NCBI GenBank assembly: GCA_036381335.1
Contig: DASVCZ010000010.1
Span: forward strand, 1-45,174
Length of the DNA: 45,174 bases
Reading direction: 5' to 3'
DNA from: Patescibacteria group bacterium
GTDB lineage: Bacteria > Patescibacteriota > Microgenomatia > UBA1400 > PJMF01
Shown here in pieces: positions 1,429 to 1,464 of this stretch. The notes beneath the pieces were generated by a model that had not been told where the DNA came from, ran no database searches, and saw only the letters and a program-made list of their open reading frames with translations. Within the stretch, counting starts at the first letter, position 1; each line of letters opens with the position of its first letter. The position numbers and the translations under genes are program-made.

Positions 1429-1464
1429 TTTTGCCACCTTCTTGCCACCAACGATTGCTACACT
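1429..1464 (+). promoter_or_regulatory. Conserved 20-mer TTTTGCCACCTTCTTGCCAC plus -10-like TACACT (copy 1 of 5), upstream of tRNA-like ncRNA-1
   Basis: TTGCCAC occurs at 1431-1437 and 1442-1448 (11-bp period). An 11-nt spacer separates the second TTGCCA from TACACT at 1459-1464. The identical architecture is found at 9677-9712(-), 19196-19231(+), 35461-35496(-) and 43698-43733(+). Confidence 0.6.

What the first reader, a model, noticed from the sequence alone, without database searches (positions are those of the whole stretch)
1429..1464. Perfectly conserved 20-mer TTTTGCCACCTTCTTGCCAC (tandem TTGCCAC, 11-bp period) at a fixed distance from a -10-like hexamer, five copies in 45 kb
The five copies are at 1429-1464(+), 9677-9712(-), 19196-19231(+), 35461-35496(-) and 43698-43733(+). 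All five share the identical 20-mer, and in every case a TAnnCT hexamer (TACACT, TAGACT, TATACT, TACACT, TATGCT) begins 10 nt after it. That places the proximal TTGCCA 11 nt and the distal one 22 nt from the -10. Neither distance matches the 17-nt sigma-70 -35 spacing, so a dedicated activator bound to a direct repeat, or an alternative sigma factor, seems more likely than a plain housekeeping promoter. The downstream units are ncRNA-1, a leaderless lamin-tail-domain surface protein, a KilA-N protein, recA and ncRNA-2. With recA and an LTD protein included, this could be a DNA-uptake/recombination or stress regulon, but that is inference.
Basis: seen in the sequence. Interest (0 to 1): 0.7.

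Follow-up and report, generated by a model that had tools for sequence, protein, structure and literature searches.

The report
Regulated promoter class upstream of recA
Five identical 20-base sequences in this tiny-genome (Patescibacteria) bacterium are the upstream halves of a special promoter class. Relatives carry the same design, with different letters, in front of recA and a surface-protein operon, and it most likely needs a dedicated DNA-binding protein in place of the usual -35 box.

Summary
TTTTGCCACCTTCTTGCCAC occurs five times (0 expected), always intergenic, and always 10 nt upstream of a TAnnCT hexamer that points at a downstream unit.

The window is a Patescibacteria (Microgenomates-like) chromosome. 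The exact 18-mer core of the motif has no related copy in the genome, metagenome or viral collections searched.

The architecture is conserved in relatives: hexamer, N5, hexamer, exactly N10, then TAnnn[T/C]. It precedes recA in five genomes and the lamin-tail-domain (LTD) operon in five. LTD is leaderless in three genomes (-10, 6 nt, ATG). The hexamer letters differ between genomes: TGCCAC, CGCAAG, TGTAAG, TGCAAG. The two-hexamer pattern gave 11 sites against 0.17 expected in 227 kb.

No -35 box sits at 16-18 nt, although canonical TTGACA-17-TATnnT promoters exist in the same window.

Best reading: a -35-less promoter class read by a dedicated, fast co-evolving DNA-binding factor. The geometry matches mycobacterial PafBC promoters (tGTCgg-N10-tAnnnT, which also drive recA) and resembles PhoB and SARP boxes. 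Rivals are a LexA-type repressor with a direct-repeat operator, or an alternative sigma factor. The regulator itself is unidentified.

In this genome the promoter also drives a KilA-N gene and two unusual tRNA-like RNA modules.

The parts
1421..1464 (+). Promoter copy 1: degenerate repeat TGGTCG (1421-1426), TGCCAC (1432-1437), TGCCAC (1443-1448), N10, -10 TACACT (1459-1464)
1474..1544 (+). tRNA-like RNA 1, driven by copy 1. It has a 7-bp acceptor stem with G3:U70, A73 and a T-arm, but no D-arm.
   Evidence: not called by ARAGORN
1558..1660 (+). Partner RNA 1: own sigma-70-like promoter TTGTTT-N16-TATACT (1558-1585), a 5' segment complementary to tRNA-like 1 (1593-1618), and a terminator (1633-1660)
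9677..9720 (-). Promoter copy 2: TGCTCC, TGCCAC, TGCCAC, N10, -10 TAGACT (9682-9677). The ATG of LTD lies 6 nt after the -10.
8444..9670 (-). Leaderless gene for a surface protein with two lamin-tail domains. It is the first gene of a conserved LTD-VanZ-HU-ABC2 gene string.
19188..19231 (+). Promoter copy 3: TGCTCG, TGCCAC, TGCCAC, N10, -10 TATACT (19226-19231)
19259..20101 (+). KilA-N domain protein, an accessory gene. Close homologues elsewhere sit inside type I R-M operons.
35461..35504 (-). Promoter copy 4 (recA P1): TGCTCC, TGCCAC, TGCCAC, N10, -10 TACACT (35466-35461)
35394..35422 (-). recA P2: canonical TTGATA-N17-TACTAT promoter between P1 and the recA ATG. It is positionally orthologous to TTGATT...TACAAC in relatives.
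34276..35337 (-). recA
43690..43733 (+). Promoter copy 5: TACTCC, TGCCAC, TGCCAC, N10, -10 TATGCT (43728-43733)
43746..43814 (+). tRNA-like RNA 2 (G3:U70, A73, T-arm), driven by copy 5
43834..43945 (+). Partner RNA 2: promoter TTGACA-N16-TACAAT (43834-43861), a segment complementary to tRNA-like 2 (43871-43900), and a terminator

Best explanation
The 20-mer is the upstream recognition element of a distinct, regulated class of -35-less promoters. Two 11-bp-phased hexamers (about -39 and -28), plus a weaker third at about -50, lie exactly 10 bp upstream of a sigma-A-type -10 (TAnnnT). They are most likely bound by a dedicated sequence-specific DNA-binding protein that substitutes for, or adapts, sigma region 4. 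This would be a class II or 'sigma adaptation' type of activation, as with PafBC, SARP and PhoB, and it would place RNA polymerase so that transcription starts about 7 nt after the hexamer. The conserved core of the regulon in this Patescibacteria clade is recA (as a distal P1 upstream of a constitutive canonical P2) and the leaderless LTD-VanZ-HU-ABC2 operon. In this genome the same promoter has also been recruited to a KilA-N gene and to two tRNA-like RNA modules. Shown here: the sequence architecture, its invariant spacing, its conservation in front of orthologous genes with diverged letters, and the lack of a -35. Inferred: that a protein binds the site, that it activates rather than represses, and that the trigger is DNA damage or a related stress.
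For: Five exact copies against 0 expected. Conservation is confined to the 20-mer and the -10, while the N10 sequence is free but its length is fixed. All copies are intergenic and co-oriented with the downstream unit. The LTD ATG lies 6 nt after the -10 in W, B and D, with no alternative start in W and D. The tRNA-like 5' ends lie 10-13 nt after the -10. The two-hexamer pattern YGYMAS-N5-YGYMAS-N10-TAnnn[TC] gives 11 hits against 0.17 expected in 227 kb, all in front of recA (W, B, C, D), LTD (W, B, D, L073) or W's extra units. Genome E recA and L072 LTD carry ACTACA-N5-TGCAAG-N10-TAnnnT. Every dual-hexamer occurrence in about 270 kb has the -10 at exactly N10. There is no -35 match at 16-18 nt, and an extended -10 is present only sometimes, whereas near-perfect TTGACA-17-TATnnT promoters occur in the same window. 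Within B and within D the two sites differ at 4-5 of 20 positions, which is typical of transcription-factor sites. The geometry equals the PafBC motif tGTCgg(N10)tA(N3)T, where a '-26 element' replaces the -35 and also drives recA (PMC8635444). Known activators bind 11-bp-phased direct repeats that overlap the -35 (SARP, PMC10936776; PhoB, PMC4971064).
Against: No regulator gene was identified. The window has no OmpR-type, WYL or LexA domain protein. There are no transcript or binding data. A fixed-spacing two-block motif is also what a sigma factor would produce. recA is the classical target of the LexA repressor, LexA is known to use direct-repeat operators in several lineages (PMC8565304), and Patescibacteria are cited among them (PMC7739468). 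The perfect 20/20 identity of all five copies in this genome, spacer letters included, is tighter than usual for transcription-factor sites. The scan pattern was partly derived from the sites it recovers; only the L073 site was found by the scan alone.
Confidence: 0.55

Rival explanations
1. The tandem hexamers are the operator of a repressor, most plausibly a LexA-type SOS repressor that recognises a direct repeat. It would sit over the -35 region of -10-only promoters, and the regulon would be derepressed after DNA damage.
For: recA is a conserved member in five genomes. LexA has repeatedly evolved direct-repeat motifs, for example GTTC-N7-GTTC with the same 11-bp period and the 20-bp Balneolaeota motif (PMC8565304; PMC7739468). 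Patescibacteria are cited as such a case. The site covers -42 to -23, a position where a bound protein would block RNA polymerase. A KilA-N gene and mobile-element-like units are typical SOS-linked cargo.
Against: The distance to the -10 is invariant (N10 in 13 of 13 sites across seven genomes) although the N10 sequence is unconstrained. A repressor does not need this; a factor that contacts RNA polymerase does. These promoters have no -35 and mostly no extended -10, so they would be weak if merely derepressed, while the organism does use canonical -35 boxes. LexA motifs are reported to be very stable across broad groups, yet here the letters change between genomes whose RecA proteins are each 85-87% identical to the window's. 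No lexA gene carrying the motif was seen in the DNA available. The LTD surface-protein and ABC-2 operon is not a typical SOS member.
Confidence: 0.2
2. The element is the upstream recognition box of an alternative sigma factor, or of an unusual sigma-A mode, giving a two-block promoter with fixed spacing.
For: Two conserved blocks sit at a strictly fixed distance. The motif letters co-vary with lineage, as with ECF sigma promoters. The gene set is small and stress-like.
Against: The downstream block is an ordinary sigma-A-type TAnnnT. The spacing from either hexamer to the -10 (10 or 21 nt) does not fit the 16-18 nt that the sigma-70 family needs between region-4 and region-2 contacts. The duplicated, helically phased hexamer (three repeats in W, four phased TG-hexamers in C) points to an oligomeric DNA-binding protein. 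A sigma-54 reading fails, because TGCCAC replaces the invariant GG, the GC-GC distance is 11 rather than 12, and relatives carry CGCAAG.
Confidence: 0.12
3. The copies are a dispersed repeat, mobile promoter cassette or recombination site, for example for the nearby serine recombinase, and not a regulon signal. Their position next to genes would be incidental.
For: The five copies are identical within one genome and absent as an exact sequence elsewhere. Copies 4 and 5 are inverted repeats flanking an 8-kb low-GC island that carries a large serine recombinase. Three of the five units are accessory. Gene order relative to relatives suggests an inversion between copies 4 and 5.
Against: The recA and LTD sites are at orthologous positions in relatives, with diverged letters but the same geometry. 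This cannot come from recent spread. No terminal inverted repeats or target duplications are visible, and the flanks are unrelated. Orientation and distance to the downstream units are uniform.
Confidence: 0.05

Closest known systems
PafBC-dependent ('RecA-NDp', -26 element) promoters of mycobacteria, activated by sigma adaptation (PMC8635444)
   Same: A hexamer at about -28 to -23 is separated by exactly N10 from a canonical TAnnnT -10, and there is no -35. It drives recA from a distal promoter alongside a second recA promoter and defines a stress regulon. Leaderless transcripts are common in the same setting.
   Different: The hexamer letters differ: TGCCAC, CGCAAG or TGCAAG here against tGTCgg with an invariant GTC. 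Here a second, and sometimes a third, phased copy lies upstream. The phylum is Patescibacteria, not Actinobacteria. No HTH-WYL-WCX protein has been found, and the letters change between close relatives, whereas the PafBC motif is conserved across actinobacteria.
OmpR/PhoB-family boxes (Pho box) and SARP boxes (afs box)
   Same: Two direct repeats with an 11-bp period overlap or replace the -35 at a fixed short distance from the -10. A head-to-tail dimer contacts RNA polymerase (PMC4971064; PMC10936776).
   Different: In the Pho box the 4-bp spacers are A/T-rich; here the spacer is CTTC. SARP repeats end 8 bp from the -10; here the hexamers end 10 bp away. No response regulator or SARP gene is in evidence.
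Direct-repeat LexA (SOS) boxes, e.g. GTTC-N7-GTTC of Alphaproteobacteria and the Balneolaeota 20-bp motif (PMC8565304; PMC7739468)
   Same: A 20-bp direct-repeat site with an 11-bp period lies in front of recA, and the motif letters are evolutionarily labile.
   Different: LexA operators sit at variable positions relative to the core promoter and are usually stable within a phylum. Here the spacing is invariant and the letters change within a clade whose RecA proteins are each 85-87% identical to the window's. No lexA target was seen.
Putative mobile promoters: identical 5' regulatory segments in front of unrelated genes in one genome (recalled from memory; the source paper was not read)
   Same: The same promoter segment stands in front of unrelated units within one genome, and three of those units are accessory.
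   Different: Only the 20-mer, the -10 and the spacing are shared, not a longer homologous segment. Two of the sites are ancient and orthologous across genomes.

Membership tests
Canonical sigma-70 (-35/-10) promoter | TTGACA-like hexamer 16-18 bp upstream of the -10 | tested here: not met
   At 16-18 bp the sequence is CCTTCT/ACCTTC/CACCTT (0-1 of 6 matches). The TTGCCA boxes lie at 11 and 22 bp. Canonical promoters do exist elsewhere in the window.
Canonical sigma-70 (-35/-10) promoter | TAnnnT -10 hexamer about 7 nt upstream of the start | tested here: met
   The hexamer is TACACT/TAGACT/TATACT/TATGCT. The leaderless ATG lies 6 nt after it in W, B and D.
PafBC / sigma-adaptation promoters | 6-bp upstream element, N10, TAnnnT, with no -35 | tested here: met
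   Found in 13 of 13 sites in seven genomes. The motif definition comes from PMC8635444.
PafBC / sigma-adaptation promoters | Conserved GTC triplet in the -26 element (tGTCgg) | tested here: not met
   The proximal hexamers are TGCCAC, CGCAAG, CGTAAG, TGCAAG and TGTAAG. Only the distal hexamer in genome C reads TGTCAG.
PafBC / sigma-adaptation promoters | A PafB/PafC (HTH-WYL-WCX) activator encoded in the genome | not testable with these tools
   Only 45 kb of this genome and 20-kb pieces of relatives could be read. None of them carries a WYL protein.
OmpR/PhoB-type or SARP activator box | Two direct repeats with an 11-bp period replacing the -35 | tested here: met
   TGCCAC-N5-TGCCAC in W, CGCAAG-N5-CGCAAG in B and D, TGTAAG-N5-TGTAAG in L073. 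In E and L072 the distal half differs (ACTACA).
OmpR/PhoB-type or SARP activator box | Cognate winged-helix regulator present | not testable with these tools
   No Trans_reg_C or SARP domain occurs in the window's ORFs. The rest of the genome is unavailable.
LexA SOS box | recA (and lexA) carry the site | tested here: inconclusive
   recA carries it in five genomes. No lexA gene is present in any DNA held. The one paper on the Patescibacteria LexA motif could not be read.
LexA SOS box | Operator position free relative to the core promoter; motif stable across a phylum | tested here: not met
   The N10 spacing is invariant. The letters differ between genomes whose RecA proteins are each 85-87% identical to the window's.
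Sigma-54 promoter | GG at -24 and GC at -12, 12 nt apart (TGGCAC-N5-TTGC) | tested here: not met
   TGCCAC lacks the GG and the GC-GC distance is 11. Relatives have CGCAAG, and a TAnnnT -10 is conserved instead.
Dispersed repeat / MITE / recombinase site | Terminal inverted repeats, target duplications, and no bias towards gene starts | tested here: not met
   The flanks are unrelated, at 22-31% identity. All copies are intergenic and oriented towards a unit. Orthologous sites occur in relatives.

The most novel reading that the evidence does not exclude
Patescibacteria of this clade may possess a previously undescribed, rapidly co-evolving transcription activator that works by a sigma-adaptation-like mechanism. 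Its regulon would couple recA to a leaderless surface LTD/HU/ABC-2 operon. In this genome it would also control a new kind of RNA module: an alanine-identity (G3:U70), D-arm-less tRNA-like RNA paired with a constitutively transcribed cognate antisense partner. Together these would form a DNA-damage or phage-stress response with RNA effectors, unlike any described SOS or PafBC regulon.
Probability: 0.3. Interest if true: 0.75.

Novelty: new member of a known kind. Interest (0 to 1): 0.55.

Why it matters
My literature searches found no promoter or TSS study of Patescibacteria (CPR bacteria). From general knowledge, most of them are uncultured and carry few recognisable regulators. This element gives a concrete, testable regulon in that group. 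It is a short DNA bait (the 20-mer) for pulling down the regulator. It is a conserved link between recA and a cell-surface lamin-tail-domain operon. It is also a natural example of a binding site and its reader changing specificity between close relatives while keeping exact promoter geometry. If the factor works like PafBC, 'sigma adaptation' would extend beyond Actinobacteria. The promoter also marks two tRNA-like RNA modules that are worth studying in their own right.

Tried and rejected
(1) Exact 18-mer scans of genome contigs (25 hits), metagenome contigs (37) and viral contigs (2). All hits were single, mostly within coding sequence, in unrelated phyla and at about the chance rate. The exact sequence therefore appears private to this organism. 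The only related hit was a 2.1-kb Logan contig carrying the same recA promoter.
(2) Phage origin. Megablast of 12 kb and blastn of an RNA module against phage records found nothing. The window is chromosomal, carrying ribosomal proteins, ftsEX, prfB and mur/ddl genes.
(3) KilA-N as the regulator. This is unlikely, because close homologues sit inside hsdM-KilA-N-hsdS-hsdR operons without a promoter of their own, and the gene is absent at the syntenic site in relatives.
(4) Sigma-54, MerR-type and UP-element readings were rejected on spacing and composition.
(5) A single hexamer plus -10 as a general promoter type. After removing the regulon sites, the count is no higher than chance: 26 hits against 11.9 expected, 10 of which are regulon sites.
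(6) The tRNA-like RNAs as two-piece or TLD-only tmRNA. Only the tRNA-like domain matches (19-22 bits against a gathering score of 47), and the two partner RNAs share no tag reading frame.
(7) A degenerate acceptor/T-arm pattern scanned in viral contigs returned more than 120 hits of roughly tRNA length (about 65-90 nt). I did not examine them and treated the pattern as non-specific.
(8) Looking for the island's attachment repeat (a tRNA-Pro 3' copy) found none.
(9) The paper on the Patescibacteria SOS network (Sanchez-Osuna et al. 2017) is not held, so its LexA motif could not be compared.

Full report
OBSERVATION. The 20-mer TTTTGCCACCTTCTTGCCAC occurs exactly five times (1429+, 9712-, 19196+, 35496-, 43698+). 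No further copies appear even with three mismatches, and none appeared in 100 dinucleotide-preserving shuffles. Aligning the copies shows a TAnnCT hexamer starting exactly 10 nt downstream in all five. Conservation has sharp boundaries. Mean pairwise identity is 100% in the 20-mer, 36% in the 10-nt spacer, 80% in the hexamer, 68% in the 11 nt upstream and 22-31% further out. The upstream 11 nt contain a third, degenerate repeat (TGCTCC/TGGTCG/TACTCC) in phase, so the element is three 11-bp units followed by N10 and a -10.

CONTEXT. The window is a bacterial chromosome. It carries L17-L13-S9, ABC-2 transporter genes, HU, VanZ, an LTD protein, ftsEX, prfB, DUF4012, cyclophilin, ddl, a Mur ligase, RNase Y and recA. 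The best RecA matches (80-90% identity) are named Pacebacteria, Woesebacteria, Microgenomates or Patescibacteria. S9 is at most 68% identical to anything known, so the organism has no close sequenced relative. Canonical sigma-70 promoters are present, for example TTGACA-17-TATGAT, TTGACA-17-TATATT and TTGACA-17-TATAGT.

WHAT EACH COPY PRECEDES.
- Copy 1 precedes a 71-nt tRNA-like RNA whose first base lies 10 nt after the -10.
- Copy 2 precedes the LTD gene, whose ATG lies 6 nt after the -10. There are only three in-frame codons before an upstream stop and no other start, so the mRNA is leaderless.
- Copy 3 precedes a KilA-N gene with a leader of about 20 nt.
- Copy 4 precedes recA, about 125 nt upstream of the ATG. 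A canonical TTGATA-17-TACTAT promoter lies in between.
- Copy 5 precedes a second tRNA-like RNA.
All five copies are intergenic and point at the unit they precede.

IS THE EXACT SEQUENCE FOUND ELSEWHERE? No. The 18-mer core gave 25, 37 and 2 hits in the genome, metagenome and viral collections. All were single copies in unrelated organisms, with no -10 in register, at about the chance rate. The one exception is a 2.1-kb contig from another sample that carries the same recA and the same promoter.

THE KEY RESULT: THE ARCHITECTURE IS CONSERVED IN RELATIVES WITH DIFFERENT LETTERS. I fetched recA and S9 neighbourhoods from relatives. The gene string S9 / ABC-2 genes / HU / VanZ / LTD is syntenic in these genomes.
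- Genome B (a 1.2-Mb JGI contig; RecA 85% identical to the window's): recA is preceded by CGCAAG-gttta-CGTAAG-N10-TATTCT. LTD is preceded by CGCAAG-cttgc-CGCAAG-N10-TATAAC-aaggct-ATG.
- Genome D: CGCAAG-N5-CGCAAG-N10-TATACT before recA and CGCAAG-N5-CGCAAG-N10-TATAAC-taggct-ATG before LTD.
- Genome C: recA has TGTCAG-N5-TGCAAG-N10-TATCTT, with two more TG-hexamers in 11-bp phase upstream.
- L073: TGTAAG-N5-TGTAAG-N10-TACAGT in the LTD upstream region. This site was found by the scan, not by eye.
- Genome E recA and L072 LTD share ACTACA-N5-TGCAAG-N10-TAnnnT.
The pattern YGYMAS-N5-YGYMAS-N10-TAnnn[TC] gives 11 hits in 227 kb against 0.17 expected, and all of them are at these promoters. The pattern was partly derived from these same sites. 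Every dual-hexamer occurrence in about 270 kb, searched without requiring a -10, is nevertheless followed by one at exactly N10. The anchored table of all 13 sites is. The most conserved features are the proximal hexamer (consensus TGCAAG-like), the N10 length and TAnnnT.

WHAT THIS IMPLIES.
(i) The element is a functional cis-regulatory signal and not a recently spread repeat. The recA and LTD sites are orthologous across genomes, while their letters and spacer sequences have diverged.
(ii) The TAnnnT is a real -10. The leaderless ATG sits 6 nt after it in three genomes.
(iii) The promoters lack a -35, although the organism uses canonical -35 boxes elsewhere.
(iv) The distance between the hexamers and the -10 never varies, although its sequence is free. 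This argues that whatever reads the hexamers also positions RNA polymerase.
(v) Duplicated, helically phased half-sites argue for an oligomeric DNA-binding protein.
(vi) Within B and within D the two sites differ at 4-5 of 20 positions, as ordinary factor sites do. In the window all five are identical, spacer letters included, while the flanks are not. That points to unusually strict selection on the whole 20-mer in this genome rather than recent copying or gene conversion.

COMPARISON WITH KNOWN SYSTEMS. The geometry is that of the mycobacterial PafBC motif, tGTCgg(N10)tA(N3)T. There a '-26 element' replaces the -35, PafBC inserts between the DNA and sigma region 4 ('sigma adaptation'), and the regulon includes recA (PMC8635444). 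SARP activators bind two 11-bp direct repeats spanning -19 to -40, again with sigma region 4 displaced (PMC10936776). PhoB binds two 7-bp direct repeats, each followed by 4 bp (PMC4971064). Membership in any of these families cannot be claimed. The invariant GTC of PafBC sites is absent, the Pho-box spacers are A/T-rich whereas here the spacer is CTTC, and no regulator gene is available. The main rival is LexA. It controls recA almost universally, has evolved direct-repeat operators several times (GTTC-N7-GTTC; a 20-bp Balneolaeota repeat), and Patescibacteria are cited among such cases (PMC8565304; PMC7739468). Three points weigh against LexA: the invariant spacing, the absence of a -35, and the change of letters between close relatives, whereas LexA motifs are reported to be stable across broad groups. 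The Patescibacteria LexA paper could not be read, so this comparison remains the most important open check.

THE REGULON. Conserved members are recA (as a distal P1 upstream of a canonical P2, an arrangement that recalls the two recA promoters of mycobacteria) and the LTD operon. The LTD protein has a signal peptide, two lamin-tail domains, Pro/Ser-rich linkers and a C-terminal anchor, so it is a surface protein. HU and ABC-2 transporter genes follow on the same strand. The KilA-N gene is accessory. Its family is very widespread in Patescibacteria (more than 7,900 hits, 57-81% identity among the 120 best listed), and in two other genomes it lies inside type I restriction-modification operons. 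It is therefore more likely a defence-related target than the regulator. A DNA-damage or phage-stress trigger is plausible but is inferred only from the gene content.

THE tRNA-LIKE MODULES. The two RNA loci are paralogues (78% identity). Each starts with a roughly 70-nt RNA that has a 7-bp acceptor stem carrying G3:U70 and A73 (the alanine identity set, from textbook knowledge) and a canonical T-arm. It has no D-arm and a non-canonical third arm. ARAGORN does not call either RNA, and Rfam matches only the tRNA-like domain of tmRNA, below threshold. About 15-20 nt further on lies a sigma-70-like promoter (TTGTTT-16-TATACT; TTGACA-16-TACAAT). It is followed by a short RNA whose 5' end is complementary to the 5' half of the cognate tRNA-like RNA, and then by a shared terminator. 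Cognate duplexes are predicted at -41 and -51 kcal/mol and non-cognate ones at -25 and -23, so the complementarity has co-varied. The full transcripts fold better than shuffles (z = -4.2 and -6.1). No tag reading frame is shared, so these are not two-piece tmRNAs. The modules are absent from the syntenic site in relatives. Their function is unknown. A regulated tRNA-like RNA held in check by a constitutive antisense partner is the simplest reading.

GENOME REARRANGEMENT. In relatives B, C, D and E, tRNA-Pro(GGG) is the divergent neighbour of recA. In the window, tRNA-Pro lies 58 nt from copy 5, and an 8-kb low-GC island sits between inverted copies 4 and 5 (54 nt, 74% identical). The island carries an Mrr-like nuclease, a SHOCT protein and a large serine recombinase abutting the tRNA 3' end. 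An inversion by recombination between the two promoter copies explains this arrangement.

VERDICT. The element is best described as a new member of the known kind 'activator-dependent, -35-less promoter with phased upstream half-sites'. It defines a small conserved regulon (recA plus the LTD operon) in a Patescibacteria clade. Which protein reads it, and whether it activates or represses, cannot be settled from sequence.

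Noticed in passing
window 1465-1660 and 43734-43945: Two paralogous RNA modules. Each has a D-arm-less tRNA-like RNA with alanine identity elements (G3:U70, A73), followed by its own sigma-70-like promoter and a short RNA complementary to the 5' half of the cognate tRNA-like RNA, then a shared terminator. 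The complementarity co-varies between the two loci. There is no match to any Rfam family at threshold.
   Followed up: partly
window 35600-43640: An 8-kb low-GC (0.34-0.38) island carries an Mrr-like endonuclease, large unknown ORFs, a SHOCT protein and a large serine recombinase that abuts the 3' end of tRNA-Pro(GGG). It is bounded by inverted promoter copies 4 and 5. In four relatives tRNA-Pro is the divergent neighbour of recA, so the window looks inverted between the two copies.
   Followed up: partly
window 19259-20101; L076 10001-10846; L077 10001-10849: The 280-aa KilA-N protein belongs to a very large family in Patescibacteria. Identity to the window protein is 57-81% among the 120 best hits, and the best hits are more similar than any known ribosomal protein S9 is to the window's. 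In two other genomes the gene sits between hsdM and hsdS of type I restriction-modification operons.
   Followed up: partly
window 35394-35422 (-): recA has a second, canonical promoter (TTGATA-N17-TACTAT) between the motif promoter and the ATG. It is conserved in position in relatives. This is a dual-promoter layout like that of mycobacterial recA.
   Followed up: partly
window 14290-15130: An ORF-poor stretch of about 0.8 kb contains two near-perfect sigma-70 promoters on opposite strands (TTGACA-17-TATATT and TTGACA-17-TATAGT); a third (TTGACA-17-TATGAT) lies further on at 15963-15991. There is no Rfam hit. It may encode unannotated small RNAs or peptides.
   Followed up: no
L073 15210-15552 (-): In this relative the motif promoter lies about 300 nt upstream of the annotated LTD start. 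The leader contains a strong hairpin (GGGTAGTGGCGG...CCGCCACTGCCC). It may be a long structured 5' UTR, a small RNA, or a mis-set start.
   Followed up: no
L065 9273-9683; L074 111-430: In relatives a GIY-YIG endonuclease gene sits next to tRNA-Pro. In L065 a 32-nt duplication of the tRNA 5' part flanks it, which suggests insertion of a mobile endonuclease at this tRNA.
   Followed up: no
window 1669-7693 (-): There are six consecutive ABC-2-type membrane protein genes plus one ATPase gene. Relatives carry two to six such membrane genes at the same place, so this transporter cluster expands and contracts.
   Followed up: no
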